Below are positions 20,935 to 53,626 of a stretch of DNA of 64,000 nt, piece by piece. The translations under genes were made by a program, and so were the position numbers. The notes below the pieces were generated by a model. That model had not been told where the DNA came from and did not search any database. It was given only the letters and a program-made list of their open reading frames with translations. How positions within the stretch are numbered: position 1 is the first letter of the stretch; each line of letters opens with the position of its first letter. Source of the DNA: Clostridia bacterium (GTDB lineage: Bacteria > Bacillota > Clostridia > TANB77 > CAG-465); assembly GCA_029256705.1 (NCBI GenBank), contig JAQSXK010000002.1, forward strand, positions 55,542 through 119,541. The letters run 5' to 3'.

Positions 20935-21597
20935 TTAACCTCTTTTATTTTTATACATAATATTATCTGCCTTAATTAAAAGTTCTTCAACTGTAGAAAC
21001 AAAGTCATTATCAACGACACCCATTGTAAAAGATATCTTTAATGATTTATTAGATATTACCTTTACATCTTCTTCAGTTATTTTCCATATATTTTCTAAA
21101 CAACTTTCTCTTTCTAACTTATCCTTTATTATAACGATGAATTCGTCTCCTCCAATTCGATAACCAACTACTTTTTGAGATTTAAGTAGACAAATCCTTC
21201 TTGAAAACTCATTTATAAGCATATCTCCTGCGGTATGTCCATAGCTATCATTAACGACTTTTAAATTATTAAAATCAATATAACACAATGTAAATTCACT
21301 ATTATTGCTAATTAAATCATTTAAATCTATAAATAACTTCCGCCTACTATATAGTCCAGTCATATATTCAAAATTAAGTTTCTTATTGAACAATTTTGTC
21401 AAGCCATGAATTGCTATTACAAATATAGTAATAGCAATAATTGTTTTTATAGTTATAGCTAAATAAATACTATCCAAATTATCTATTTGACTTCCAATAA
21501 TTTTTAATTCACAAGCATCAATGAATATAATACAGAGCAATCCAATTACAAAATTTACACTTATAATTTTTAAAATCCTTTTTTCATCATCACACAT
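20935..21597 (-). CDS. membrane-anchored diguanylate cyclase (GGDEF domain)
   Basis: Two N-terminal TM helices; RIGGDEF active-site motif (VVGYRIGGDEFIVII). Confidence 0.85.
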   Translation of the reverse strand: MCDDEKRILKIISVNFVIGLLCIIFIDACELKIIGSQIDNLDSIYLAITIKTIIAITIFVIAIHGLTKLFNKKLNFEYMTGLYSRRKLFIDLNDLISNNSEFTLCYIDFNNLKVVNDSYGHTAGDMLINEFSRRICLLKSQKVVGYRIGGDEFIVIIKDKLERESCLENIWKITEEDVKVISNKSLKISFTMGVVDNDFVSTVEELLIKADNIMYKNKRG

Positions 21598-32590: not shown

Positions 32591-33235
32591 ATGAGTAGAA
32601 ACTTACAAACAAAAAAAGAAATTAATGAAATAATTGAAATATTGAAACAAGCATATCCAGAAGCTAAATGTAGATTAAATTATGAATCTCCTCTACAACT
32701 TGTAGTCGCACTAATACTAGCTGCGCAATGTACTGATGATATGGTTAATAAGGTAGTTCCTATCTTGTTTAATAAATATCCTAGCGCTAAGTGTTTAGCA
32801 AATGCTGATTTATCTGATATAGAAAAAATAGTAAGACCTTGCGGATTTTACTTAACAAAGGCAAAAAATATCCAACTTACTGCAAGAAGTATATTTGAAA
32901 ATTATAACAATACTATTCCTGACAGTATGGAAGAATTAACTAAACTATATGGAATAGGAAGAAAAAGTTCAAATATAATTCTTCAAGAATGCTATAACAA
33001 AACCGAAGGAATTGCTGTAGATACACATGTATCTAGAACATCAAAAAGAATAGGTTTTACCAGAAGTGATATACCACTGAAGCAAGAACAAGAGTTAATA
33101 AAGAAAGTAGATAAAAAATATTTTAATAAATTAAATCACATATTAGTGTTTCATGGTAGAGCAATATGCATCTCTCGTAAGCCTAAATGTGACATATGTC
33201 CTATTGAAGATAGATGCAAAAAAGTGGGTATTTAA
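32591..33235 (+). CDS. nth: endonuclease III (DNA glycosylase/AP lyase)
   Basis: HhH-GPD fold (LYGIGRKSSNII), catalytic Lys region, C-terminal [4Fe-4S] loop CISRKPKCDICPIEDRC; ATG at 32591 preceded by AGGTGA. Confidence 0.9.
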   Translation: MSRNLQTKKEINEIIEILKQAYPEAKCRLNYESPLQLVVALILAAQCTDDMVNKVVPILFNKYPSAKCLANADLSDIEKIVRPCGFYLTKAKNIQLTARSIFENYNNTIPDSMEELTKLYGIGRKSSNIILQECYNKTEGIAVDTHVSRTSKRIGFTRSDIPLKQEQELIKKVDKKYFNKLNHILVFHGRAICISRKPKCDICPIEDRCKKVGI

Positions 33236-33247
33236 CCCACTTTTTAT
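33218..33247. terminator. bidirectional terminator between nth and the histidine kinase
   Basis: AAAAAAGTGGGT-attta-ACCCACTTTTT overlapping the nth stop codon. Confidence 0.55.
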
Positions 33248-33265: not shown

Positions 33266-35077
33266 CTATTTGATTTCAGTTTTATCTTCATTATTAATTT
33301 CTTGAGCAACTGAAACTTTACTTTCTTCTTTCGCTCTATCTAATAATATATAAAATGTAGTACCTTGTCCCTCAGAAGATTCAAATGTTATCTCCCCTGA
33401 AAATTCACCTTTAATAACTGAATATGCAAGATAAAGTCCAAGCCCTGTACCTTTTGTTCCCTTCGTAGTTAATATATTTTTAAATACAAATTCTTTTATA
33501 TTTTCTGGTATTCCACCAGCGTAATCTCTTACTTGAACCATAATCTTATTACTTGGTGCTTTAGTTACAGAAACCTCTATCTTACCACTTTTTTCGTTAT
33601 ATGCTTGAATAGCATTTAAAAACAAGTTAGTAAACACTTGACCTAGTTTTGTAGGATCTCCATAAACACTCAAATCGTCTTCAATGTTTACACTTAATTC
33701 GCATCTGCTTTTTTGAAATTCATTATATGCTATAATTCTTACATCTTCTATGACTTCGCTTATTTTGAAGTTAAATTTCTGATCACTACCTAAATTTCTT
33801 ATCTGATTTCGCATACTGTTAACTATTTTAATGATTTTCTCAGTACAATTACTCATTCTAAATAATAATTCTTTTTCAGTTTCATCCCTAGGTATATACA
33901 TTTCTTGAAGCATTTGTATGCCTGTTTTTATAGCTGAAATAGGAGTATTTATATCATGAGCAACGCCTCCAGCAAGTTCACCTATGGAAACAAGTTGTCC
34001 CTGCTTCACTATAACCTCTTGCTTATCCTCTATTTCTTGTATATCTTTTTTATGTTGGGTTATATCTCTAAACAGTAGTAATGTACCTATATATTCTGAA
34101 TTACTCTTAATTTTTATTGGATGTATATCAACTTCAAAATATTTATTAAACGTTTTATTAATTATGTGATATTCCTCTTTGATTATACTTCCCATCTTTC
34201 TAGATTCTTTTATGTGAATTTTTAAATCTTTCAAATCTAGCAAATTACTCTTTTCAATCATTTCAAATAAATTATCTTCCCTATTTGCTTTTAAAATTTC
34301 TTTAAATATATTTTCAAACGTTAAATTTTTATCCACTATAGTTCCATCATTTGATATTACAATAAATGCATCAGACATTGTATCTATTACTGTTCTAAAG
34401 GCTATTGGTGTTATATTAAGAGCCTTATATTTAAATATTGCGATAGCATAGCAAATAGTTGCAAACATAAATAATACTGGAGTAACATATATTGTCATCG
34501 GTATTATTTTAAAAGTTCCTAAAACATTTGCAAAGAGTGGAACCATACTTCCCAATACAATTAATGCAGTTTGATTAGAAAAGAATCCTGAATTACGAAT
34601 TGACGCATAAATTAATGTAAACAATGCAAAAGTCAATAATACATATGAATATACTGAATGTACTATAAAGTATGGACCTACAACTCCATCACTTATATTA
34701 ATTGAATATTTAACAAAGAATAAATGATGAATATCATTCGTCCATAATACGATTAATGTAACGGTAGGTACTATCAACATCCATAAGATTTTTTTTAAAT
34801 CAAACTCTGGTTTTAAATAAGTCGAAGCCAAGGCCATAAATGCGACTGGTAAATACACCCCCGCCACATATGTTATATAGTCAAAATATATTTGTCCAAC
34901 TCCATTAAATAAAATTTGCAGTATTAGTGCTAATAGATATATTGCTAATAAAGTATATATTAAAATAAACTCTCTATGCAACTTAGTATTATTTTTTCTT
35001 TTTGCTAAATCAATCATCAATCCAAAGCAAGATGTTAATGTAATTAATAATAATAGCAATGTTGTATTAAATATCAT
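33266..35077 (-). CDS. orphan sensor histidine kinase (N-terminal 7TM sensor domain, PAS, HisKA, HATPase_c)
   Basis: Seven hydrophobic helices, then a PAS-like region, H-box GGVAHDINTPISAIKTG, N-box LFLNAIQA, G-boxes GTGLGLYL and GQGTTFYI; AGGAGG RBS 8 nt after the NRPS stop; no response regulator within the window. Confidence 0.85.
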   Translation of the reverse strand: MIFNTTLLLLLITLTSCFGLMIDLAKRKNNTKLHREFILIYTLLAIYLLALILQILFNGVGQIYFDYITYVAGVYLPVAFMALASTYLKPEFDLKKILWMLIVPTVTLIVLWTNDIHHLFFVKYSINISDGVVGPYFIVHSVYSYVLLTFALFTLIYASIRNSGFFSNQTALIVLGSMVPLFANVLGTFKIIPMTIYVTPVLFMFATICYAIAIFKYKALNITPIAFRTVIDTMSDAFIVISNDGTIVDKNLTFENIFKEILKANREDNLFEMIEKSNLLDLKDLKIHIKESRKMGSIIKEEYHIINKTFNKYFEVDIHPIKIKSNSEYIGTLLLFRDITQHKKDIQEIEDKQEVIVKQGQLVSIGELAGGVAHDINTPISAIKTGIQMLQEMYIPRDETEKELLFRMSNCTEKIIKIVNSMRNQIRNLGSDQKFNFKISEVIEDVRIIAYNEFQKSRCELSVNIEDDLSVYGDPTKLGQVFTNLFLNAIQAYNEKSGKIEVSVTKAPSNKIMVQVRDYAGGIPENIKEFVFKNILTTKGTKGTGLGLYLAYSVIKGEFSGEITFESSEGQGTTFYILLDRAKEESKVSVAQEINNEDKTEIK

Positions 35078-35095
35078 ATTTATACCTCCTAATAG

Positions 35096-38000
35096 TTATA
35101 AAAATTTTACTTCTTTTAAATATTCTATATATTTTAAAATATAATTTACGTCGATATTTGGCCATTCAAAATTCAATTCTTTCAAGAAATCTTTAGTAAA
35201 TGTTGATAATACTTTAATATTGGTCTTATATTCTAGTTCCTTATTTTTATTGAGATCTGCAATTATTCCAGATATATCTTCAGATGATTCATTAGAGTTT
35301 AAATACTTTTCCATTAATAAAGTCATATCTTGCTTACTTATAATTTTAATGTCTATTCCAATATTTTTTAATGTGTTTATTACATATCTCATCTTTGCAT
35401 GCTTATCATTAAATAGATGGAATACACTATACTCTCTTGATGTCCTAGCTAACTTCATAACAGCATCAGATGCAAAATCTATTGGTGTAAATTCCATATA
35501 AAAATCCAACAAGTTTTCTGGCATCACTTTTAAATTAATTAATGTTTTTATTCTATTTGCAAATGCATTTTCTTCAACATTTGGTTGGAATTTTCCATCT
35601 GTATATCTTCCAGTTAAATTTCCCATTCTCATTATTTTGGCATTTAATCTATTCTCAGATATCTCGTCAAGTATATATTTATCTGCTATATACTTAGTAT
35701 ATACATATACATTATCTAAGTTTTGCTCTATATATAATTTAGTTTCATCGAATTCTTTCTCTATTCCATCATTCTTTTGTTCAACTTGACCACCTTCAAT
35801 TATATTTCCAGATGTACTTAACGTTGAAATCTGAATTAACCTTTTATCGTATTTTTCACAAAAATTTACAATATTTTTAGTACCCTTTACATTTATTTTA
35901 TAGAATAATTCTAAATTTCCATAATGTTTTACATGTGCTGCAGAATTTATTACTGTATCAATATTTTTACTCAACTTAATATTAGCCTCTTCATCTGCAA
36001 TTATATTTTCATTAGTAATATCGCCTTCAACAACATGTATCCTATTATTAAGTTCATTTTCATATTTATCACCAAAGAAGAAACTCAATATTTCTTTTAT
36101 TCTTGATTCTGGATCTTCACCATTTTTACTTCTTATCAAGCAATATATTTTTCCTTTTTCATTTCTCATAAAATTATCTAATATATGTGCACCTAAAAAT
36201 CCTGTAACGCCTGCAAGAAGTACATTACCTACAGATTGTTCAGTTGGTTTATAATTTTCTAATTTATTATTCTCTAAAATTTTATTTATCTTACTATAAT
36301 CATAATCTGCAATTTCTCCGGATATTGACTCTTTTTTATTTATATTATTTAGCATATCTCCAAGTTCTCTAATAGTAGGATATTTAAAGATATCACCATA
36401 AATAATTTTTATATCCTTTGAAAGCAATTTCATAACCAAACTAGTAACTAGTAATGAATCGCCCCCTATTTCAAAAAAGTTATCATTCATGCCAATGTTT
36501 TCGACATTTAATACTTCTTTAAAACTCTCCGCCAACTCAAAATATATACCATCCAATTTTTCTGTATTACTTATAACATTTAATTTGATATCAGGTAACT
36601 TTGACTTATCTACTTTACCATTTATATTAAGTGGTAAAGTTTCTAATCTCATAAAGTAATTTGGTATCATATATAGAGGTAATTTATTTTTCAAAAAGAT
36701 TCTCAACTTTTGTTCATCTATTAAATTATTACTTGTATAATAACAAACAATACTCTTAACGTTATTTATTTCGTTAACTTGCAAATAGCATTCATTTATT
36801 TCTTTATACTTTAAAACACCCAATTGTATCTCTTCTAGTTCAATCCTAAATCCTCTTATCTTTACTTGCATATCTATCCTGCCTAAGAATTCAATATTTT
36901 TAGTATAACTTAAATATACTAAATCACCAGTCTTATATAAAATCTGATTATTCATTTTTATAAACTTTTCATTAGTCAGTTTTTCTTTATTTAAATATCC
37001 ATTAGAAACTCCATCTCCACCCACTAATAATTCGCCCGGAACATTAATTGGAGATAATAAATTACATTTATCATAGATATAGCATGTAGTATTACTTATT
37101 GGTATTCCTATAGGTATTTTGAATTCAAATCTTTTCTCTATTTTATAATAAGTCGAGAAGCTTGTATTTTCAGTTGGACCATATACACTTAATAAATCTA
37201 TATTTTTATTATTATCTAAAACTAAATTTATATGTTTTGTAGATAGAACTTCACCACCAACAAGTAATGTTCTCACATTATCAAAAATATTTTTATCATA
37301 TTCAACTATATTATTAAACAGTGCTGTTGTCAAAAAAATTACTGTTATATTATTATCAATTAGATACTGTTTTAATATCATTGGATTCAATAAATCGTCT
37401 TTTTTAATTAAATATAAAGTTAACCCATTAAGTAATGCACCAAAACACTCAAATGTAGCTGCGTCAAATGACATTGAACCTGTTTGCAATATTCTATCCG
37501 TATTCTTAAAATCTATATAATTAGTATTTTTTACTAATCTTACAACACTCTTATGCCTTACCATTACACCCTTTGGTTCACCAGTTGTTCCAGAAGTATA
37601 CATTATATAAGCTAAATCATCTATACTACTCTTAATATTTAAGTTTTTATTATCATAATTTTTAAATATATCAAATTTTGAGAATGTACTTTTATTTACT
37701 AAAACTTTAATATTAGAGTCTCTAAAAATATATTCTATTCTTTCTTTAGGATAACTCAGATCCATTGGAAGGTATATTGCTCCACATTTTAAAATTCCCA
37801 ATATTGCTATCATCATCTCAATTGATTTATCCAACATTATAGCTACAACATTACCATTTCTAACATGATTTTCAATTAAGTAATGTGCTAATTGGTTTGC
37901 TTTTTCATTTAGATCTATGTAAGTTAAACTATTATTTTCACATACTACCGCTATTTCATTTGGAGTTAAATCAACCTGTTCTTCAAATAACTGAATTATA

Positions 38001-41000
38001 GTTTTATCTTTAGGATAATTAGTATGTGTGTTATTAAAAGAATTTAAAATAAATTCCTTTTCTTCTTCTGATATTATTTCTACATCTCTTATATTAGCCT
38101 CTTTATTTTTAGTAATAAATTCTAATGCATTTAAAACGTGCATAGAAAATCTTTCGATAGTTTCATCCTTATATAGATTTGTATCATATTCTAAATTTAA
38201 ATCTATTTTTTTATCAGTTGGATATACCTCAAATGTTAAATCAAATTTAGAAGTATTAGTTTTTATTTCATCTATCTCTAATTTTGTATTTTCTAGATAT
38301 ATATCAGGTTTACCTGTATTTTGAAAAACATACATAATATTGAAGATTGGATTTCTTGAACTATCTCTCTTGATTTTTAGATTTTTAACCATTTCTTCGT
38401 ATGTATACGAATTATTTTCTAAAGTTTCTAACATTAAATTCTGAGTTTTTTGTAAGTATTCTTTAAATGATTCATTTAAATCTATTTTTACTCTATAAGG
38501 TAAAGATTTAACGAACATTCCTATTGTATTTAATTCTTGTATATGTCTTCTACCAAATGTTGCTATACCTATAATTATATCCTCGCTATAAGTATATTTA
38601 GATAACACAAAATTAAATATTGCTAAGAACACATTATTCAATGTAACATTATTTTCTTTTGCATATTCAACCAATTTTTCTTTTAATTCTGAATTTATTA
38701 TTTTTTTTATTTTTTTCCCTTCAAAAGACTTGTTACTTTTTCTAGGATAATCAGTATTAATTGAAATTACAGGCAATTCATCACTCAATTTATCTAAAAA
38801 ATATTTCTTAGATTTTGTATACTTACTTTTATCATTTTCTATTTGTATACATTGCCCAAATGTTAATATTTCATTTTTTATTTGTTTATCATTATATACA
38901 TCAATTATATCTTCTATAAGTATATTAATCGACTGCCCATCAAATATTATATGATGAAAATCCATTAAAATATTTATTTTGTCCTCTACTAAATAAAATT
39001 CAATTCTAAACAATCTTCCATTAAGTAAGTCAAACGGTTTTACGAAATTATCTTTTACTTTAATATATTCAATATTACTTAATCTAACAGCATTAATTTT
39101 TATTTTCTGTTTATCAATTTTATAATATAATTTATTTTCTTTCATATCTATTTTAGAAAACAATAATGAATGATTTAAAACACTAGTCTCTATACTTTTT
39201 ATTAATTTATCAACATTTATATTATTATTAAGTTTTATTTCTAAAGGTGTATTGTAGATAATACTTTCTGTATTATAAGAATAATTATTGAATATTGATA
39301 TTTGAGCAGGAGTTAGTAAATATTCCTCCTTTTCAGTAGGTACATTAAATATTTCAGTACTCTGTGAATACACACTTTTTTCTCTTATTCTTTTCTCTAA
39401 CATTTCAATGTTTTCACATTCATAAATATCTGTATAGGTAAAATCTATCTTATATTCATCTGATATTTCCATAGACAGTCTTATTGCGCATAAAGAATCA
39501 ATATTTTTTTTATACGAAGAATCATAATAATCAATGTTATATTTGGATAATATTTTAGATAATTTTTTATCTTTAACATTAATTTTATTAGCCTCGGTTT
39601 TATTATCATTATCTTCTTCGTCTACTAGTTCTATTAATTTTTTTCTATCTGCTTTTCCATTCATATTAAAAGGAATTTCCTCTAAAACGAACAACTCACT
39701 TGGCAACATATATTTTGGTAATGATAAACTTAATTTATCTATAATTTCTTTTTTATTATTAAATTTATCATTTATTGTTACATAACATACAATTTTATCA
39801 ATATTATTAATTTTTTTAACAACAACAGCACTTGACGTTATACAATCAATCATATTAATAGCACTTTCAATTTCTTCTATCTCAATACGTAATCCATTAA
39901 TTTTAATTTGATTATCTATTCTTCTACTATACTCTAAATCTCCATCAAAGTTATATAATACTTCATCACCAGTCTTATATACTTTCATACCAAATAATAT
40001 ATCAAATTTACTTGATACTGCATTATCAACATTTATATATCCTAATCCAACTCCAGCACCTGCTATAGCTAATTCTCCATTAACACCCATCGGTAAAATT
40101 CTATTTTTTCTATCTATTATAAATGATTTAGTATTTGGAATTGGCTTTCCAATGTTAACTTCATCATAACTTTTGATTAATTTCATTGACGAGCATACTG
40201 TAGTTTCTGTTGGGCCATAGCCATTAAATATATCTATATTTTTATCTTGCAGAATATTTAATACATTTTTATTGAATACTTCACCTGCTATTGTCAATCT
40301 CTTTATTGAATTTAGCTTCTCAATGTTATCTTCTTTTTGTAGTATTAAATTCAATTTTGTTGGTGTTATAAACATAACTTCTATAGAATACTTTTCTATA
40401 GTATCTACAATTTTATATGGAGAATTTGATTCTTCATCATTTAAAAATACTAATTTAATTCCGAATAGCAAAGGCGTTATAGTTTCTATAACAAACATAT
40501 CAAAAAAGTATTTTGTAATAGATAATGCTACTTTGCAATAATCAAGTTTTTTTACATCATTAGCAGCAAACATTAAATTAATTAAATTGTTATGTGAAAT
40601 CATAACTCCTTTAGGTTTACCTGTTGTTCCAGAAGTATAAATTACATATACTAAATCTTCTCCTTTATTTACTTTTGTAAGATTATTACTTAAATAATTA
40701 GAGTAATTAAAATTATTTATATTTATGGTTTCAACTTTATTATTAATATTATCTATATTTGTAATTATCAACTTTGAACTGCTATTTTCTAAAATATATT
40801 TTATTCTATCGATTGGGAATTCTGGATCTATAGGTAAATATGCAGCACCAGACTTTAAAATCCCCAATATTGAAATAATCATTTCAAATGATCTTTTAAA
40901 TATTAATGATACGATATCCCCAGATTTTACTTTTTTTTCTTCTCTTAAAAAATGTGCGAGACTATTAGATTTTTCATTTAATTCTAGATATGTCATTTGT

Positions 41001-42430
41001 TTATTTTCAAAAATAATTGCTACATCATTTGGATGTTTTTTTACCTGTTGCTCAAATAAATCAATAACAGTCATATTAGTAGGATATTTTGTGTCAGTAT
41101 TATTAAATTCACATAATATTTTATCTTCTTCATCTTCACTCATTACACGAATGTTTTCAACATTAATATCTAAATCTTTAATTGCATTTTTCATAATGGC
41201 AATGAGTCTTGTATTTAAATATTCAATCTCAATTTCATCAAATAGATCTACTAAATAATCATAGTGCAAATTAAAAATACCAGTATTGTCTATATCCATA
41301 ATGTGAATCTCTAAATCATCTTGTATATTACCTGAAAATAACCATTCGGTAGAAAAATCTTCATTATCTAAAATATTTGATCTTGTGTTTTGATAAGATA
41401 ATACAAAATTATATATTTTGCCCTTCACATCTGTTGTGTTATGTATATATTCTAATGTTTTTTCAATTGGATATTTTTGATGTCTAAATAGTGACATAGT
41501 ATCATTACCTAATTGTTTAACTAAATCTATAAATTTTATATTTTCTTCTACTTTTATGCGTGTTGGCATAGTGGAAATAAACATTCCCAGCATCTGTTTT
41601 TCTTTAAAATTTGATCTATTTAACACAGGGGTACCTATTATAAAATCATTTTCATTTTTTATTCTATAAATATATGTGGCAAGCGCACCTAAAAACAACG
41701 TATATGCAGATATTTTATTAACTTTTATATATTCTACTATTTTATCATTAGTTTCTTTATCTAACGTTATAGAATATCTATTAGCTCTTGTATTTAATTT
41801 TTTCTTAGAAGTTTTTAATGAAACAGGTGCTTTTATATCTTTTAAATATTCTCTCCAAAACTGTTCATCTTTCAAATATTTTTCTGAAGAAGTATATTCT
41901 TTTTCTGATTCTATAAAATCTATATACGATGGTTTATTAGCTTCTTCATGTATATTATTTATAGCATTATCATACATTTTTAAGAGTTGATTTGCTACTT
42001 GTCCAAATGTCCATGCATCGGAAATAATATGATGTAACTTAACAAATACACATCCATCATTATTATTATATCTAACTATTTTAATATCATATAATTTATT
42101 ATTTAAAAAATCAAAAGGAGTATTAGAATTTATTTCAAAAAAATTTTCAATATCTTCTTGGCTTTTTTTACTCATGTCAAAATATTCTACATCTTCATAT
42201 ATATAATCTTCAAAAATTTGATACACAGAATTATCCTCTTCAAAAATCTTAATTCTTAGAGCATCATTTAATTCAATAAGTTTATTTACTATTTTATTAC
42301 ATATTTTTTCATCAAATTTAGATTTGATTTGAAGCAATCCAGCTATAGTATTCATAGAAGTATTTTTATTAAATTTCTCTACTAAATATATGTTATTCTC
42401 AGGAAAAGTCAATTCATATCTATTATTCAT
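35096..42430 (-). CDS. bimodular non-ribosomal peptide synthetase with terminal reductase: C-A-T-C-A-T-R
   Basis: C1 HHIISDAWTFG (about 42030); A1 core YTSGTTGKPKG (about 40610), NGYGPTETT, YKTGDEV; T1 NIDSL (about 39500); C2 HHIIFDGQS (about 38950); A2 YTSGTTGEPKGVMV (about 37575), YGPTENT, YKTGDLV; T2 GGDSLLVTSL (about 36455); R domain GxxGxxG VLLAGVTGFLGAHIL (about 36200) and YTKYIADK. Start placed at the second ATG (42430), which has a GAGGGG RBS; the upstream in-frame ATG at 42445 is also possible. Confidence 0.95.
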   Translation of the reverse strand: MNNRYELTFPENNIYLVEKFNKNTSMNTIAGLLQIKSKFDEKICNKIVNKLIELNDALRIKIFEEDNSVYQIFEDYIYEDVEYFDMSKKSQEDIENFFEINSNTPFDFLNNKLYDIKIVRYNNNDGCVFVKLHHIISDAWTFGQVANQLLKMYDNAINNIHEEANKPSYIDFIESEKEYTSSEKYLKDEQFWREYLKDIKAPVSLKTSKKKLNTRANRYSITLDKETNDKIVEYIKVNKISAYTLFLGALATYIYRIKNENDFIIGTPVLNRSNFKEKQMLGMFISTMPTRIKVEENIKFIDLVKQLGNDTMSLFRHQKYPIEKTLEYIHNTTDVKGKIYNFVLSYQNTRSNILDNEDFSTEWLFSGNIQDDLEIHIMDIDNTGIFNLHYDYLVDLFDEIEIEYLNTRLIAIMKNAIKDLDINVENIRVMSEDEEDKILCEFNNTDTKYPTNMTVIDLFEQQVKKHPNDVAIIFENKQMTYLELNEKSNSLAHFLREEKKVKSGDIVSLIFKRSFEMIISILGILKSGAAYLPIDPEFPIDRIKYILENSSSKLIITNIDNINNKVETININNFNYSNYLSNNLTKVNKGEDLVYVIYTSGTTGKPKGVMISHNNLINLMFAANDVKKLDYCKVALSITKYFFDMFVIETITPLLFGIKLVFLNDEESNSPYKIVDTIEKYSIEVMFITPTKLNLILQKEDNIEKLNSIKRLTIAGEVFNKNVLNILQDKNIDIFNGYGPTETTVCSSMKLIKSYDEVNIGKPIPNTKSFIIDRKNRILPMGVNGELAIAGAGVGLGYINVDNAVSSKFDILFGMKVYKTGDEVLYNFDGDLEYSRRIDNQIKINGLRIEIEEIESAINMIDCITSSAVVVKKINNIDKIVCYVTINDKFNNKKEIIDKLSLSLPKYMLPSELFVLEEIPFNMNGKADRKKLIELVDEEDNDNKTEANKINVKDKKLSKILSKYNIDYYDSSYKKNIDSLCAIRLSMEISDEYKIDFTYTDIYECENIEMLEKRIREKSVYSQSTEIFNVPTEKEEYLLTPAQISIFNNYSYNTESIIYNTPLEIKLNNNINVDKLIKSIETSVLNHSLLFSKIDMKENKLYYKIDKQKIKINAVRLSNIEYIKVKDNFVKPFDLLNGRLFRIEFYLVEDKINILMDFHHIIFDGQSINILIEDIIDVYNDKQIKNEILTFGQCIQIENDKSKYTKSKKYFLDKLSDELPVISINTDYPRKSNKSFEGKKIKKIINSELKEKLVEYAKENNVTLNNVFLAIFNFVLSKYTYSEDIIIGIATFGRRHIQELNTIGMFVKSLPYRVKIDLNESFKEYLQKTQNLMLETLENNSYTYEEMVKNLKIKRDSSRNPIFNIMYVFQNTGKPDIYLENTKLEIDEIKTNTSKFDLTFEVYPTDKKIDLNLEYDTNLYKDETIERFSMHVLNALEFITKNKEANIRDVEIISEEEKEFILNSFNNTHTNYPKDKTIIQLFEEQVDLTPNEIAVVCENNSLTYIDLNEKANQLAHYLIENHVRNGNVVAIMLDKSIEMMIAILGILKCGAIYLPMDLSYPKERIEYIFRDSNIKVLVNKSTFSKFDIFKNYDNKNLNIKSSIDDLAYIMYTSGTTGEPKGVMVRHKSVVRLVKNTNYIDFKNTDRILQTGSMSFDAATFECFGALLNGLTLYLIKKDDLLNPMILKQYLIDNNITVIFLTTALFNNIVEYDKNIFDNVRTLLVGGEVLSTKHINLVLDNNKNIDLLSVYGPTENTSFSTYYKIEKRFEFKIPIGIPISNTTCYIYDKCNLLSPINVPGELLVGGDGVSNGYLNKEKLTNEKFIKMNNQILYKTGDLVYLSYTKNIEFLGRIDMQVKIRGFRIELEEIQLGVLKYKEINECYLQVNEINNVKSIVCYYTSNNLIDEQKLRIFLKNKLPLYMIPNYFMRLETLPLNINGKVDKSKLPDIKLNVISNTEKLDGIYFELAESFKEVLNVENIGMNDNFFEIGGDSLLVTSLVMKLLSKDIKIIYGDIFKYPTIRELGDMLNNINKKESISGEIADYDYSKINKILENNKLENYKPTEQSVGNVLLAGVTGFLGAHILDNFMRNEKGKIYCLIRSKNGEDPESRIKEILSFFFGDKYENELNNRIHVVEGDITNENIIADEEANIKLSKNIDTVINSAAHVKHYGNLELFYKINVKGTKNIVNFCEKYDKRLIQISTLSTSGNIIEGGQVEQKNDGIEKEFDETKLYIEQNLDNVYVYTKYIADKYILDEISENRLNAKIMRMGNLTGRYTDGKFQPNVEENAFANRIKTLINLKVMPENLLDFYMEFTPIDFASDAVMKLARTSREYSVFHLFNDKHAKMRYVINTLKNIGIDIKIISKQDMTLLMEKYLNSNESSEDISGIIADLNKNKELEYKTNIKVLSTFTKDFLKELNFEWPNIDVNYILKYIEYLKEVKFL

Positions 42431-42485
42431 TATATTACCCCTCATTTGTATACAATTATAAAATAATTATATATCAAAAAAATAC

Positions 42486-42530
42486 AAAAAACAACACTTT
42501 TAAATTAATTTATTTAAAAGTGTTGTTTTT
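42486..42530 (-). terminator. rho-independent terminator after divIC (upstream of the NRPS)
   Basis: AAAAACAACACTTTTAAA ... TTTAAAAGTGTTGTTTTT 18-bp perfect inverted repeat. Confidence 0.65.
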
Positions 42531-43816: not shown

Positions 43817-44515
43817 CTAATCTATTTTCATAGATTTTGTAATGAATTTTTTGGATTTTCCAGATAGTTCATTAGATATTTGGCCCGTCACATAAGCTGT
43901 AGCACAAGATGTTCCAGAAGCCTTAATAGTACTTCCATCCAGTAATTTTATATCATATTTTTTATCTTTCACTACTATAACCGCTTTACTAGAAGCATTA
44001 TCTGAAACGGAAACTACACCTTTGTAATTTGCAGGATACGAATAACCCTCGTAATTGTTTATACACGAAGCAACAACAATAACCCCATTATCCAGCGCAT
44101 ATTGTACAGCCTCTTTTAATTTAGGCTTATCTTCCTTTGTTCCAAAACTCATGTTAATAATATCAACATCATTTTCAACACACCAATATATAGATTTTGC
44201 TATATTATCTATGCTAGATACTAAGTTGCTATCCAAAGTAGAAACGTAATATATTTCTGCATTGTTTTTTTGCTTAATTATAGATAAGATAGTATTACCA
44301 TGATTTGTAAGCAAAGGATCCTTTACCATTATCTTATTCACTTTTACGTCATATTTGGATATATATTCATCATCCAATAAACTGTCTATAACGCCAATTT
44401 TAACTACTTTACTTGGTCCATTATGAAACGATAAATAAGCAACATATAAAGCAACCGCATAAAGTGAAATTAACAAAATTACCATTACTAAAAATTCTTT
44501 CCGATTTCTTTTCAT
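43817..44515 (-). CDS. minimal membrane-anchored subtilisin-like serine peptidase (S8)
   Basis: N-terminal TM; catalytic Asp (IGVIDSL), His (TNHGNTILS), oxyanion Asn (IINMSFGT) and Ser (SGTSCATAYVTG) in the S8 order within only 232 aa. Confidence 0.75.
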   Translation of the reverse strand: MKRNRKEFLVMVILLISLYAVALYVAYLSFHNGPSKVVKIGVIDSLLDDEYISKYDVKVNKIMVKDPLLTNHGNTILSIIKQKNNAEIYYVSTLDSNLVSSIDNIAKSIYWCVENDVDIINMSFGTKEDKPKLKEAVQYALDNGVIVVASCINNYEGYSYPANYKGVVSVSDNASSKAVIVVKDKKYDIKLLDGSTIKASGTSCATAYVTGQISNELSGKSKKFITKSMKID

Positions 44516-44529
44516 AAAATACCCGCCTT

Positions 44530-44874
44530 CTATAAATTTATTGTAGGTAATGATTTATCCACACTTTCAACTGTAATAGACTTACCTACTACTCTTGCAT
44601 TACATTCAGGATAATTTTCATTTAAAAATCTTAGTACAACAGATATATCTAGAACTTCTACATTCAAACTTTCCCTTATACAAAGGCATCCCTCATCTTC
44701 TGTACTATCTTCATAGAGCCATTCATGAAATTCCTTAGTTAAAACAGAAATTTCCGGCAAATTTGAATTATTACATTCTATTATTTTAGCATAACAATCA
44801 AAAACTATTGTAATAAACATTAAGTATTCCTCCTTTAAAGAAATATAAATTATTGAGTAGCACCAAACCAACAA
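44530..44874 (-). CDS. small acidic Cys-containing protein, hypothetical (candidate immunity/accessory factor)
   Basis: 114 aa, no TM, six Cys including CLC; sits between the His-rich secreted protein gene and the S8 peptidase gene with small gaps and a 25-bp overlap. Confidence 0.35.
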   Translation of the reverse strand: MLVWCYSIIYISLKEEYLMFITIVFDCYAKIIECNNSNLPEISVLTKEFHEWLYEDSTEDEGCLCIRESLNVEVLDISVVLRFLNENYPECNARVVGKSITVESVDKSLPTINL

Positions 44875-45680
44875 TGTGGTTCGTGATTAGGATTTACAAT
44901 CCATTTTCTTCCACCAGGGTGATAATGAGGATAAAAACCCTCGCCAACATCATGAGCTTTATGGTATATATATTTAGTAGTTGGGACTGTTGCTGCTAAA
45001 GCAGCGGCTTTTGCAGCTTCTCTAGTCGTTGCAAAAACATCCATTCCTGCTATTAATCTTGCTACTGCTGCTTCATAAGTTATTTGCTTATTAATAACAA
45101 CAACTCCACCAGCCAAAGCTGCTGAGTAGTATGGTGAGTTTTTTTTTGTATCTTCCTTTTCCTCTACTTTTTCTTGTACCTTAACATTTACTTTGTTTGC
45201 ATCAATCGTTTTTGCAATTGAGTCAACAGAGTACCATACAGTATAAGTTCCTACAACTGCTACTGCTGCAGCAATTGTTATTTGCGCTGCTTCAATAAGA
45301 GCTGGAGTCCATAGAATTAAAGGAATAGCAAAAGCAAACTGTCCAACAACAACTCCATCATAATTTTGTGGGTCCGTTTGTGCTAAATCAATAACTAAGT
45401 TGTCCCCATACTTTTGAGTAGATAAATCATATGCTATTTCATCCCTGTATAAAGTGTACTTATCAACATCCTTAGCATATTTAACCTTCAAGGTTGTATC
45501 ATCTATAGTATTTATAACTTCAATGTTTCCATTAGCTTTTGTAGTTATAACTAAATTTTCATTGTTATTTATCCGTTGGTATTTGTAATAATAATTTTTA
45601 GCTGTAGGTAAAATAGTTAACACTAGAATAATCGTTAGTAATAATACTGTTAACCGGTAAAACCTTTCACTCATTTTCAT
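44850..45680 (-). CDS. secreted/membrane protein with a hydrophobic helical hairpin and a His-rich C-terminus
   Basis: Signal-anchor MKMSERFYRLTVLLLTIILVLTIL; central hydrophobic segment VVVGQFAFAIPLILWTPALIEAAQITIAAAVAVVG; Ala-rich region; C-terminal HKAHDVGEGFYPHYHPGGRKWIVNPNHEPHCWFG. Confidence 0.4.
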   Translation of the reverse strand: MKMSERFYRLTVLLLTIILVLTILPTAKNYYYKYQRINNNENLVITTKANGNIEVINTIDDTTLKVKYAKDVDKYTLYRDEIAYDLSTQKYGDNLVIDLAQTDPQNYDGVVVGQFAFAIPLILWTPALIEAAQITIAAAVAVVGTYTVWYSVDSIAKTIDANKVNVKVQEKVEEKEDTKKNSPYYSAALAGGVVVINKQITYEAAVARLIAGMDVFATTREAAKAAALAATVPTTKYIYHKAHDVGEGFYPHYHPGGRKWIVNPNHEPHCWFGATQ

Positions 45681-53541: not shown

Positions 53542-53626
53542 GCGAGTATGGCGGAACTGGCAGACGCGCCAGACTTAGAATCTGGTACCAACCGGTGTGG
53601 AGGTTCAAGTCCTCTTACTCGCACCA
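53542..53626 (+). tRNA. tRNA-Leu (anticodon UAG), class II with long variable arm, encoded CCA
   Basis: Acceptor GCGAGTA/TACTCGC, D-arm, anticodon stem CCAGA/TCTGG with loop CTTAGAA (anticodon TAG), long variable arm, T-arm GGTTCAAGTCC, discriminator A plus CCA. Confidence 0.9.

What the first reader, a model, noticed from the sequence alone, without database searches (positions are those of the whole stretch)
35096..42430. Stand-alone C-A-T-C-A-T-R NRPS predicted to release an (N-acyl) dipeptide aldehyde, placed right after divIC
A single 2444-aa ORF carries two complete NRPS modules (HHxxxDG condensation motifs at about 42030 and 38950; A-domain cores YTSGTTGKPKG and YTSGTTGEPKG; PCP serines NIDSL and GGDSL) and ends in a thioester-reductase domain (GxxGxxG VLLAGVTGFLGAHIL, YxxxK) rather than a thioesterase. 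From established NRPS logic this architecture yields a dipeptide aldehyde (which can cyclise to a dihydropyrazinone/pyrazinone), and the N-terminal C domain ahead of module 1 suggests N-acylation. No tailoring, MbtH, PPTase or transporter genes lie adjacent. The gene sits after the divIC terminator and is co-transcribed with a sensor kinase, so it looks like a compact, possibly sporulation-linked small-molecule locus. This is the strongest candidate for a new biological system in the window.
Basis: partly seen in the sequence, partly recalled or inferred. Interest (0 to 1): 0.8.

Follow-up and report, generated by a model that had tools for sequence, protein, structure and literature searches.

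The report
Peptide-aldehyde synthetase paired with sensor kinase
The gene is a real, intact two-module peptide synthetase of a known clostridial family thought to make fatty-acylated dipeptide aldehydes, but it is always paired with a membrane sensor kinase whose sensing half is swapped together with the enzyme's last module, which suggests the product is a cell-to-cell signal.

Summary
A 2444-aa ORF (35096-42430, minus strand) encodes C-A-T-C-A-T-R with every catalytic motif intact. An 18-nt gap separates it from a 7TM-PAS histidine kinase gene, and terminator-like hairpins flank the pair.

The enzyme is not a new kind. It belongs to a large family of R-terminated NRPSs from uncultured Clostridia. 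The literature links NRPSs of this kind in gut Clostridium and Ruminococcus to N-acyl dipeptide aldehydes. The predicted product is N-acyl-Xaa-(Ile/Val-like) aldehyde.

The link to sporulation is not supported. The site after divIC is shared only within this lineage.

The kinase is the unexpected part. All 9 NRPS homologues I examined are followed by it. Of 44 dereplicated kinase-seeded loci, 41 have an R-domain NRPS immediately upstream.

The kinase's 7TM sensor shares its history with the last A domain and the R domain, not with its own PAS/kinase core. Five genomes of this lineage carry different A…R+sensor cassettes at the same locus. In all ten pairwise comparisons the right-hand breakpoint lies at about kinase residue 205.

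This resembles agr/com pherotype loci. The product is probably the kinase's ligand; that step is inferred, not shown.

The parts
35096..42430 (-). NRPS coding sequence, 2444 aa, C-A-T-C-A-T-R
   Evidence: ORF; start set by a GAGGGG SD at 42438-42443, 7 nt before the ATG at 42430; identical 2444-aa NCBI MAG protein P0001; Pfam domains
41114..42424 (-). C1, N-terminal (starter-position) condensation domain; HHIISD at residues 133-138
   Evidence: Pfam Condensation 253 bits. His and Asp are 95-100% conserved in the family. No carrier domain precedes it, so the donor must come in trans. The subtype was not resolved by the PDB search.
39653..41056 (-). A1 adenylation domain; 10-residue specificity code DMIFTAGVCK
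   Evidence: Pfam AMP-binding plus AMP-binding_C. Code extracted against GrsA positions, with GrsA recovered as DAWTIAAICK as a control. 8 of the 85 aligned family sequences have this A1 code.
39371..39568 (-). T1 carrier domain, Ser979 in NIDSL (approximate borders)
   Evidence: Pfam PP-binding 23.9 bits, partial match; D-S is 100% conserved in the family
38045..39331 (-). C2 condensation domain, HHIIFDG at residues 1159-1165
   Evidence: Pfam Condensation 275.7 bits; motif conservation
36581..37987 (-). A2 adenylation domain; specificity code DAFFLGVSFK (branched-chain aliphatic, Ile/Val-like)
   Evidence: Pfam AMP-binding; code. It is one residue from DAFFLGVTFK (8 family members) and close to DAFWLGGTFK, the commonest A2 code in the family (28 members). 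The Val assignment of that code is from memory.
36350..36535 (-). T2 carrier domain, Ser1992 in GGDSL
   Evidence: Pfam PP-binding 42.6 bits; GGDS is 95-100% conserved
35099..36313 (-). R, terminal thioester reductase (SDR); nucleotide-binding motif G2074-x-T-G-x-x-G2080 (GVTGFLG), Y2242/K2246
   Evidence: Pfam NAD_binding_4 157 bits; PDB 6vtj E 2.6e-63 and AusA R 4f6l E 4e-34; G, Y and K are 100% conserved
33266..35077 (-). Sensor histidine kinase, 603 aa: HisKA_7TM - PAS - HisKA (H374) - HATPase_c; no response regulator adjacent
   Evidence: Pfam. AGGAGG at 35085-35090 lies 7 nt before the ATG at 35077, and the gap after the NRPS stop is 18 nt. H-box, N, G1, F and G2 residues are invariant.
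34448..35077 (-). 7TM sensor domain of the kinase (residues 1 to about 210); the hypervariable part
   Evidence: HisKA_7TM 122.9 bits. AF2 model: pLDDT 90.8, 7 long helices. 39-46% identity to same-lineage alleles against 84-89% for the kinase core.
34448..37963 (-). Exchangeable cassette of about 3.5 kb: A2-T2-R plus the kinase 7TM sensor
   Evidence: Sliding identity of the window against L003 and L005 places breakpoints at NRPS residue ~1480-1500 and kinase residue ~210-225. The same right-hand breakpoint appears in all 10 same-lineage pairs. Mantel and nearest-neighbour tests agree.
42487..42530 (-). Terminator-like hairpin (19 pairs plus T run) between divIC and the NRPS
   Evidence: 8 such sites found against 1.9 expected in shuffles; sequence
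33219..33245 (.). Terminator-like hairpin between the convergent kinase and nth genes

Best explanation
The locus is a two-gene operon, NRPS then 7TM histidine kinase, bounded by terminator-like hairpins.

Shown:
- The NRPS is an intact C-A-T-C-A-T-R enzyme.
- It belongs to a large clostridial family of R-terminated synthetases.
- The kinase gene follows it in essentially every relative examined.
- The kinase's 7TM sensor domain is inherited together with the terminal A-T-R module as a hypervariable cassette. The starter C domain and the PAS/kinase core follow the host lineage instead.

Inferred from NRPS logic and family precedent:
1. A PPTase encoded elsewhere primes the carrier domains.
2. 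C1 transfers a fatty acyl group from acyl-CoA or acyl-ACP onto the A1-loaded residue. That residue has a hydrophobic pocket (code DMIFTAGVCK) and is unassigned.
3. C2 adds an Ile/Val-like residue (code DAFFLGVSFK).
4. The R domain uses NAD(P)H to release an N-acyl dipeptide aldehyde.

Inferred from the co-inheritance pattern:
5. This lipophilic product is the ligand of the co-transcribed kinase's 7TM domain.
6. The kinase autophosphorylates on H374 and signals to an unlinked response regulator. In the sister clade the regulator is an adjacent REC-HD-GYP protein, so the output there is probably c-di-GMP turnover.
7. The different cassettes then act as signalling specificity groups (pherotypes), as at agr or com loci.

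My sub-confidences: architecture and integrity 0.97; N-acyl dipeptide aldehyde as product class 0.7; kinase as receptor of the product 0.45.
For: Architecture and motifs.

Operon structure.

Family size: 1779 proteins with E<=1e-50 (any NRPS); among the 120 best, 84 are 2400-2520 aa and share the dimodular R-terminated architecture.

Product precedent: PMC8518294, PMC12327764, PMC8210680.

Forward linkage: 9 of 9 NRPS homologues at 34-62% identity, including one trimodular enzyme, are followed by a HisKA_7TM kinase, in at least six different flanking contexts.

Reverse linkage: 41 of 44 dereplicated kinase-seeded metagenome loci have an R-domain NRPS ending no more than ~320 nt upstream. Two more have other NRPS-like megasynthases there.

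Co-inheritance:
- Sensor distance correlates with last-A-domain distance (r 0.59 and 0.70 in the two clades) and with R-domain distance (0.51 and 0.73). In the window's clade it does not correlate with the kinase's own PAS (-0.04) or core (-0.02).
- The sensor's nearest neighbour equals the nearest neighbour of the last A domain in 17 of 33 loci and of R in 18 of 33. For PAS it is 4 of 33 and for the core 6 of 33.
- Partial Mantel, sensor against last-module specificity code given the core: r 0.42, p 0.0005. The reverse test (core against code given the sensor) gives r 0.009.

Window-specific mosaic: A2-T2-R plus the sensor are 65-86% identical to L005 and about 40% to L003. The rest of the operon is closer to L003, with the kinase core at 88-96%.

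Same-lineage alleles: the window, L003, L009, L010 and L011 share flanking genes at about 74-95% identity, where their contigs cover them. They carry mono- or di-modular NRPSs with different codes and sensors only 39-46% identical. In all 10 pairs identity jumps to at least 87% at kinase residue ~205-211.
Against: - No chemistry or binding data exist for this or any close relative. The characterised family members could not be compared directly because Guo 2017 and Schneider & Balskus 2018 are not held.
- The cassette is physically contiguous, so shared recombination tracts alone would produce some co-inheritance without any functional link.
- The Mantel tests ignore phylogenetic non-independence.
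- No response regulator, PPTase or acyl-activating gene was found in the 64-kb window. This rests on tblastn with single queries and on Pfam scans of the ±10-kb genes and of ten short ORFs; the other ORFs beyond ±10 kb were not scanned against Pfam.
- The C1 subtype (starter versus ordinary) was not resolved by the PDB search.
- Whether an R domain stops at the aldehyde or goes on to the alcohol cannot be read from sequence (PMC8024701).
- The A1 code matches no specificity I can assign.
- The 7TM model gives only weak, generic 7-helix matches (best E 2.9e-3), so the fold says nothing about a ligand.
Confidence: 0.5

Rival explanations
1. Ordinary family member with an unrelated kinase. The NRPS makes an N-acyl dipeptide aldehyde that acts only as a secreted protease inhibitor, against host, competitor or the cell's own proteases. 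The kinase is a co-expressed regulator that does not bind the product. The cassette pattern reflects only physical linkage plus fast sensor evolution.
For: Protease inhibition is the only function reported for the family (PMC8518294; PMC8210680). In the sister clade an HtrA-like Trypsin_2+PDZ protease lies divergently upstream in 14 groups, and M14 peptidases lie upstream in 5 groups. The cassette is contiguous DNA.
Against: Linkage alone does not explain three things. The sensor correlates with the last A domain, about 1.5 kb away, but not with the PAS domain that abuts it. All ten same-lineage pairs share one breakpoint. Identity ranks reverse between sensor and core: L005 is closer than L003 for the sensor and further for the core. 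The pairing also persists across at least six different flanking contexts.
Confidence: 0.3
2. Same enzyme, different release chemistry. The R domain performs a four-electron reduction and the product is an N-acyl dipeptide alcohol.
For: R domains of both types exist, and the extent of reduction is not predictable from sequence (PMC8024701).
Against: The second-best solved relative is the aldehyde-forming AusA R domain. The products attributed to gut clostridial NRPSs of this kind are aldehydes.
Confidence: 0.12
3. C1 is not an acylating starter domain. The product is a free-amine dipeptide aldehyde that cyclises to a dihydropyrazinone or pyrazinone, as with aureusimines.
For: The PDB search did not place C1 specifically with starter C domains (RzmA Cs 7c1k scores only E 1.7e-16; generic C domains score better). 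No acyl-activating gene is adjacent in the window.
Against: The C1 catalytic His and Asp are intact and family-invariant. The one cited product of a Clostridium NRPS cluster of this kind is N-acylated. A sister-clade locus has an adjacent acyl-AMP/CoA ligase (L089). AusA-type enzymes lack the N-terminal C domain, and the AusA equivalog score is below cutoff (1454 against 2500).
Confidence: 0.06
4. The kinase's 7TM domain is not a receptor. It serves as a membrane dock, exporter or immunity element that physically interacts with the R domain or with the product.
For: The sensor co-varies with the R domain about as strongly as with the A domain. No exporter gene is adjacent.
Against: The domain is a Pfam-defined histidine-kinase sensor module fused to an intact PAS-DHp-CA core. 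The fold is a plain 7-helix bundle with no transporter-like match.
Confidence: 0.08

Closest known systems
Gut clostridial R-terminated NRPS family making (N-acyl) dipeptide aldehydes (Guo et al. 2017, for example BGC0001686 giving N-octanoyl-Met-Phe-H) and the Ruminococcus bromii rup pathway (ruminopeptin; Schneider & Balskus 2018)
   Same: An NRPS with reductive release in anaerobic Clostridia, and an N-acyl dipeptide aldehyde as predicted product. I recall from memory that the characterised enzymes are single C-A-T-C-A-T-R proteins; no source I could read states it. Homologues of the window enzyme at 34-62% identity are abundant, and some come from contigs labelled human gut metagenome. Literature.
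   Different: The window enzyme is at most 62% identical to anything in the databases searched, and its A1 code is unassigned. I found no paper in the searchable library that mentions the conserved, co-varying 7TM kinase partner. The primary papers could not be read, so I cannot say whether they noted it. Direct sequence comparison with the characterised enzymes was not possible.
AusA/PznA aureusimine synthetase of Staphylococcus aureus
   Same: A dimodular NRPS with a terminal aldehyde-forming R domain. The R domains are homologous (4f6l, E 4e-34), and the best NCBIfam hit is aureusi_NRPS.
   Different: AusA is A-T-C-A-T-R with no N-terminal C domain, and its free-amine product cyclises to pyrazinones. 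The equivalog score is below cutoff (1454 against 2500). From memory, AusA is paired with a PPTase (ausB), not with a kinase.
Staphylococcal agr (agrB-agrD-agrC hypervariable region) and streptococcal comC-comD pherotype loci
   Same: The signal-specifying genes and the membrane sensor half of the receptor kinase form one contiguous hypervariable cassette, while the kinase's catalytic half is conserved. Multiple alleles sit at a fixed chromosomal site in related genomes. I recall the agr and com architecture from memory; the pattern here was measured.
   Different: The signal here would come from an NRPS rather than being a ribosomal peptide. There is no AgrB-like processing enzyme and no adjacent response regulator in this clade. 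Ligand-receptor specificity is untested.
Rpf/DSF signalling (RpfF synthase, RpfC sensor kinase, RpfG REC-HD-GYP regulator)
   Same: A lipid-like signal, a membrane sensor kinase and an HD-GYP response regulator. In the sister clade of this family, 28 of 56 locus groups have a REC+HD_5 regulator downstream of the kinase (within ~4 kb; immediately after it in most). I recall the Rpf architecture from memory.
   Different: The window's clade has no such regulator nearby. The synthase is an NRPS rather than a crotonase. The kinase sensor domains are unrelated.
Signals made by NRPS-type or adenylating enzymes and sensed by a two-component system (Dickeya Vfm, PMC9306890); pyrazinone autoinducers (Klebsiella oxytoca, PMC11480411)
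   Same: They are precedents that products of such enzymes, or products derived from peptide aldehydes, can act as autoinducers, with strain-specific polymorphism in the biosynthetic genes (abstracts).
   Different: They occur in unrelated organisms, with different gene sets and chemistry. No sequence relationship was tested.

Membership tests
Clostridial R-terminated NRPS family (N-acyl dipeptide aldehyde synthetases) | Domain order C-A-T-C-A-T-R in one polypeptide | tested here: met
   Pfam on the whole protein and on seven segments
Clostridial R-terminated NRPS family (N-acyl dipeptide aldehyde synthetases) | Intact catalytic residues in every domain | tested here: met
   C His/Asp, A core motifs and the A10 Lys, both carrier Ser, and the R-domain Gly motif and Tyr/Lys are present and 95-100% conserved across 85 aligned homologues
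Clostridial R-terminated NRPS family (N-acyl dipeptide aldehyde synthetases) | Full-length homology to other same-architecture enzymes of anaerobic Clostridia | tested here: met
   84 of the 120 best hits are 2400-2520 aa with the same Pfam set, at 35-62% identity and ~100% coverage
Clostridial R-terminated NRPS family (N-acyl dipeptide aldehyde synthetases) | Sequence relationship to the experimentally characterised members (BGC0001686, RupA) | not testable with these tools
   The reference sequences and primary papers are not available. Cluster look-ups returned no organism names.
Clostridial R-terminated NRPS family (N-acyl dipeptide aldehyde synthetases) | Product is an N-acylated dipeptide aldehyde | not testable with these tools
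   Needs expression and LC-MS. Aldehyde versus alcohol cannot be predicted from sequence (PMC8024701).
AusA (aureusimine synthetase) equivalog, NCBIfam NF047350 | Whole-protein score above the curated cutoff, and A-T-C-A-T-R architecture | tested here: not met
   1454 bits against a cutoff of 2500, and an extra N-terminal C domain
HisKA_7TM sensor histidine kinases (Pfam PF16927) | N-terminal 7TM domain plus HisKA and HATPase_c with the conserved His | tested here: met
   PF16927 122.9 bits (cutoff 28.6), HisKA 39.2, HATPase_c 72.4; H374 and the N/G boxes are invariant; AF2 model with 7 long helices, pLDDT 90.8
Pherotype-type quorum-sensing locus (agr/com-like) | Signal synthase and receptor kinase encoded together and co-transcribed | tested here: met
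   18-nt gap, SD sequence and flanking hairpins; pairing in 9/9 and 41/44 loci
Pherotype-type quorum-sensing locus (agr/com-like) | Hypervariable cassette spanning the specificity determinants and the sensor domain, with a conserved kinase core, as multiple alleles at one locus | tested here: met
Pherotype-type quorum-sensing locus (agr/com-like) | Product binds and activates the cognate sensor and cross-inhibits or ignores non-cognate ones; autoinduction | not testable with these tools
   Needs biochemistry or genetics
Pherotype-type quorum-sensing locus (agr/com-like) | Cognate response regulator in the locus | tested here: not met
   None found in the window or in the 10 clade-A locus groups with at least ~2.5 kb of sequence downstream of the kinase. 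The sister clade has REC-HD-GYP.
   A hairpin separates the NRPS from divIC. The module lies in unrelated contexts in other lineages. The promoter scan is uninformative in this AT-rich DNA (123 found against 119.7 expected).

The most novel reading that the evidence does not exclude
The many R-terminated NRPSs of uncultured and gut Clostridia are not primarily protease-inhibitor factories. They are the synthase half of a widespread cell-cell signalling system. Each N-acyl (di)peptide aldehyde is sensed by the 7TM domain of the kinase encoded directly downstream. The unit A-T-R plus sensor diversifies and is exchanged as a whole, creating pherotypes; at least five alleles occupy the divIC-nth locus in this lineage. 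The output runs through orphan phosphotransfer in this clade and through an HD-GYP c-di-GMP phosphodiesterase in the sister clade.
Probability: 0.4. Interest if true: 0.85.

Novelty: new variant of a known kind. Interest (0 to 1): 0.62.

Why it matters
Taken alone, the enzyme is one more member of a known family and would matter little.

The native role of the abundant clostridial peptide-aldehyde NRPSs is still open. The only role reported in the papers I could read is protease inhibition, chiefly of host proteases. A near-obligate partnership with a sensor kinase, whose sensing domain travels with the product-determining module, gives a concrete alternative that can be tested. These molecules may be strain-specific signals, an NRPS-based counterpart of agr/com pherotypes in anaerobes that cannot yet be cultured.

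The pattern also yields matched predicted signal and receptor pairs. They can be synthesised and assayed without growing the organisms. It also points to natural recombination boundaries, C|A in the NRPS and TM7|linker in the kinase, that may be useful for engineering NRPSs and sensors.

Tried and rejected
- **Primary papers.** Guo 2017, Schneider & Balskus 2018 and Mullowney 2018 are not held. Whether they mention the kinase could not be checked.
- **Organism names.** I tried to tie loci to R. bromii or named Clostridium isolates. The listing of cluster members returned no names, and among the 120 best-scoring kinase hits none was attributed by its source to a cultured isolate. The genome-contig scan gave one distant MAG.
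- **C1 subtype from solved structures.** Inconclusive: generic C domains score above the known starter C domains.
- **Fold search of the 7TM model.** Only weak, generic 7-helix (GPCR-like) matches, none at E<=0.001. I did not use them.
- **Promoter assignment for the NRPS.** The sigma-70 scan is at chance level in this AT-rich DNA. Only about 45 nt separate the hairpin from the SD sequence, so no promoter is claimed.
- **PPTase, response regulator and HtrA in the window.** Nothing found by tblastn, nor by Pfam on ten short ORFs.
- **Literature linking peptide aldehydes, kinases and quorum sensing.** Five searches found nothing relevant.
- **Rejected: sporulation linkage.** The genomic context is not conserved across lineages.
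- **Rejected: pseudogene.** All motifs are intact.
- **Rejected: thioesterase release.** The C-terminal domain is an SDR reductase.
Full report
**1. Observation**

The window is AT-rich, about 25% G+C. It matches a JGI metagenome contig. NCBI holds the identical protein as 'MAG: non-ribosomal peptide synthetase [Clostridia bacterium]', 2444 aa (P0001).

The longest ORF runs 35096..42445 on the minus strand.

Pfam on the whole protein and on seven segments gives Condensation, AMP-binding(+C), PP-binding, Condensation, AMP-binding, PP-binding and NAD_binding_4/Epimerase. In an alignment with 84 same-architecture homologues the catalytic residues are the family-invariant ones. The only deviation is that C1 reads HHIISDA rather than ...DG, as in 75% of the family.

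The C-terminal domain is an SDR thioester reductase. Its best solved relatives are the Mru_0351 PCP-R didomain (6vtj, E 2.6e-63) and the AusA R domain (4f6l, E 4e-34).

**2. Surroundings**

Upstream lie yabP, yabQ and divIC. A 19-pair hairpin with a T run follows at 42530-42487 (8 such sites found against 1.9 expected in shuffles).

Downstream, 18 nt after the NRPS stop and 7 nt after an AGGAGG, a 603-aa histidine kinase begins: HisKA_7TM, PAS, HisKA, HATPase_c. A second hairpin separates it from the convergent nth gene.

NRPS and kinase therefore form a two-gene operon. No promoter can be assigned, because the sigma-70 scan is at chance level (123 sites against 119.7 expected).

No PPTase, MbtH, transporter or tailoring gene lies within ±10 kb. 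No Sfp-like, REC-HD-GYP or HtrA-like gene was found anywhere in the window.

**3. What the enzyme is**

The protein search returns 1779 hits at E<=1e-50. These include many proteins of about 2450-2490 aa with the same domain set at 35-62% identity, and trimodular versions of about 3500 aa. Nearly all come from metagenomes or MAGs.

Papers I could read report these points:
- A Clostridium NRPS cluster (BGC0001686) gives N-octanoyl-Met-Phe-H (PMC8518294).
- Similar dipeptide aldehydes are common in gut bacteria (PMC8518294).
- Ruminococcus bromii ruminopeptin is an N-acyl Leu-Glu aldehyde (PMC8518294; PMC12327764).
- The N-acyl tail stabilises the aldehyde against pyrazinone formation (PMC8210680).

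I extracted specificity codes by alignment to GrsA. I recalled the GrsA sequence from memory; it reproduces the published DAWTIAAICK, which serves as a control.
- A1 is DMIFTAGVCK. Eight of the 85 aligned family sequences have this code. I cannot assign it; the pocket is hydrophobic.
- A2 is DAFFLGVSFK. It is one residue from DAFFLGVTFK and close to DAFWLGGTFK, the Val-type code that is commonest in the family. The Ile/Val reading rests on my memory of published codes.

Whether the R domain stops at the aldehyde cannot be told from sequence (PMC8024701). PDB comparison did not settle whether C1 is a starter-type domain. Its position, its intact active site and the family precedent argue for N-acylation.

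**4. The kinase is a conserved partner**

All nine NRPS homologues whose contigs I examined are followed directly by a HisKA_7TM kinase, often with overlapping stop and start codons. They span 34-62% identity and include one trimodular enzyme. The surrounding genes differ: divIC, mreB, M14 peptidase, hydrogenase genes, SMC/SIR2 and others. The kinases are orthologous and diverge in parallel with the NRPSs.

I then searched metagenomes with the kinase alignment, which returned 80 loci.
- After dereplication at 90% kinase identity, 41 of 44 evaluable groups have an R-domain NRPS ending no more than ~320 nt upstream.
- Two of the three exceptions have other megasynthases there: one TE-terminated, one C-FkbH-glyoxalase-T.
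- Only one type lacks an NRPS altogether. It is a tandem array of three kinases.
- Both monomodular C-A-T-R and dimodular enzymes occur.

The sample is biased toward relatives of NRPS-linked kinases, because those seeded the search.

Two clades appear. The window's clade (kinase 52-80% identical) has no response regulator nearby. The sister clade (33-40%) usually has a REC+HD_5 (HD-GYP) regulator after the kinase and often an HtrA-like protease. In one locus there is also an acyl-AMP/CoA ligase upstream.

**5. Cassette structure**

I built domain-wise distance matrices over 33 dereplicated loci. The kinase's 7TM sensor shares its history with the last A domain and the R domain, not with the rest of its own protein.

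| Comparison | Window's clade | Sister clade |
|---|---|---|
| Sensor vs last A domain (Mantel r) | 0.59 | 0.70 |
| Sensor vs R domain | 0.51 | 0.73 |
| Sensor vs PAS | -0.04 | 0.60 |
| Sensor vs kinase core | -0.02 | 0.37 |
| PAS vs core | 0.63 | 0.72 |

- The sensor's nearest neighbour coincides with that of the last A domain in 17 of 33 loci and of R in 18 of 33. For PAS it is 4 of 33 and for the core 6 of 33.
- Sensor distance tracks the last-module specificity code after controlling for the core (partial Mantel r 0.42, p 0.0005). The reverse test gives r 0.009.
- For the window itself, NRPS residues ~1500-2444 plus kinase residues 1 to ~210 are 65-86% identical to L005 and about 40% identical to L003. 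The rest of the operon is closer to L003, with the kinase core at 88-96%.

Five genomes of the same lineage sharpen the picture: the window, L003, L009, L010 and L011. Where their contigs cover the flanking genes, these are about 74-95% identical (yabP 92-95%, divIC 81-82%, yabQ 73-76%, nth 84-85%, pyk 85-86%). All carry the module beside those same genes. They differ as follows:
- The NRPSs are mono- or di-modular and have different codes.
- The sensors are only 39-46% identical.
- In all ten pairwise comparisons kinase identity jumps to at least 87% at residue ~205-211, the end of TM7.

This is a hypervariable allelic cassette at a fixed locus with a shared boundary. From memory, the agr (agrB-D-C) and comC-D pherotype loci have the same architecture.

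An AF2 model of the sensor is confident (pLDDT 90.8) and shows seven long helices. Its fold matches are weak and generic.

**6. Mechanism**

*Shown:* the domain composition and its integrity, the operon layout, the NRPS-kinase pairing, and the co-inherited cassette.

*Inferred from NRPS logic and family precedent:* priming by a PPTase encoded elsewhere; N-acylation by C1; assembly of Xaa-(Ile/Val-like); NAD(P)H-dependent release as an aldehyde.

*Inferred from co-inheritance:* the product is the ligand of the 7TM sensor, and the kinase (H374) relays to an unlinked regulator. In the sister clade the relay is probably to c-di-GMP turnover through HD-GYP.

The main rival is that the aldehyde is only a protease inhibitor and the pattern reflects physical linkage. 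Contiguity does make some co-inheritance expected. The sharp, repeated TM7 boundary, the absence of correlation with the abutting PAS domain and the rank reversals argue against pure linkage, but they do not exclude it.

**7. Sporulation**

Not supported. The position after divIC holds only within this lineage. A hairpin intervenes, and other lineages carry the same module elsewhere.

**8. Novelty and verdict**

The enzyme is a new member of a known family. The conserved NRPS-kinase module with an exchangeable A-T-R+sensor cassette is, as far as five literature searches show, not described. I could not read the two primary papers. I rate the whole as a new variant of a known kind, with interest 0.62. 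The signalling reading has a probability of about 0.4.

Noticed in passing
window 43817-45680 (-): A three-gene unit between a near-consensus promoter-like site (TTGACT-17-TATAAT with TG, 45790-45762) and a terminator-like hairpin (43808-43781). It encodes a 276-aa membrane protein with no firm Pfam match, a small 96-114-aa protein with no match, and a short 232-aa S8 subtilase. The subtilase's best NCBIfam hit is QhpE, below cutoff (109 against 165 bits). Function unknown.
   Followed up: partly
L002, L029, L050, L067, L089 and others (sister clade): More distant NRPS-kinase loci carry a REC+HD_5 (HD-GYP) response regulator after the kinase in 28 groups, and a divergent HtrA-like Trypsin_2+PDZ protease upstream in 14 groups. 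L089 also has an acyl-AMP/CoA ligase. A serine protease next to a predicted peptide-aldehyde synthetase may be its target.
   Followed up: partly
L009, L010, L013-L022, L079, L083: Monomodular C-A-T-R versions are paired with the same kinase. Many have the Gly-type code DILQLG[LV]IWK, which predicts N-acyl-glycinal-like products.
   Followed up: partly
L025 9899-15307; L023; L024: Tandem arrays of two or three HisKA_7TM kinase paralogues (about 40% identical to the window's kinase) with no NRPS within 10 kb upstream.
   Followed up: no
L039 4200-13040; L062 2409-9911: The same kinase subfamily occurs behind atypical megasynthases. L039 has C-FkbH-glyoxalase-T, followed after the kinase by a REC-HATPase protein. 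L062 is a TE-terminated enzyme that lacks a detectable first A domain.
   Followed up: partly
L053, L057, L073 (and L052, L074, L077): In three independent kinase groups the NRPS reading frame breaks inside or just after the first A domain (C-A | A-C-A-T-R). This is either a natural split or a recurrent frameshift.
   Followed up: no
window 35099-36313 (R domain): The closest solved relative of the R domain is the PCP-R didomain of Mru_0351 from the rumen archaeon Methanobrevibacter ruminantium (6vtj, E 2.6e-63; PMC8024701). It scores well above bacterial AusA. This is compatible with gene transfer between rumen or gut Clostridia and methanogens.
   Followed up: no
window 20935-21597 (-): A 220-aa GGDEF-domain protein, so the organism has c-di-GMP signalling. 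Next to it lie LemA and DUF3137 genes.
   Followed up: no
P0261 and P0278: Two different kinase homologues (53-54% identical to the window's) share the same longest-contig length (206,963 bp), so probably lie on one contig. This suggests that some genomes carry more than one NRPS-kinase module.
   Followed up: no
window 53542-53626 (+): A single tRNA-Leu (anticodon TAG) is the only Rfam or ARAGORN hit in the 64-kb window.
   Followed up: no
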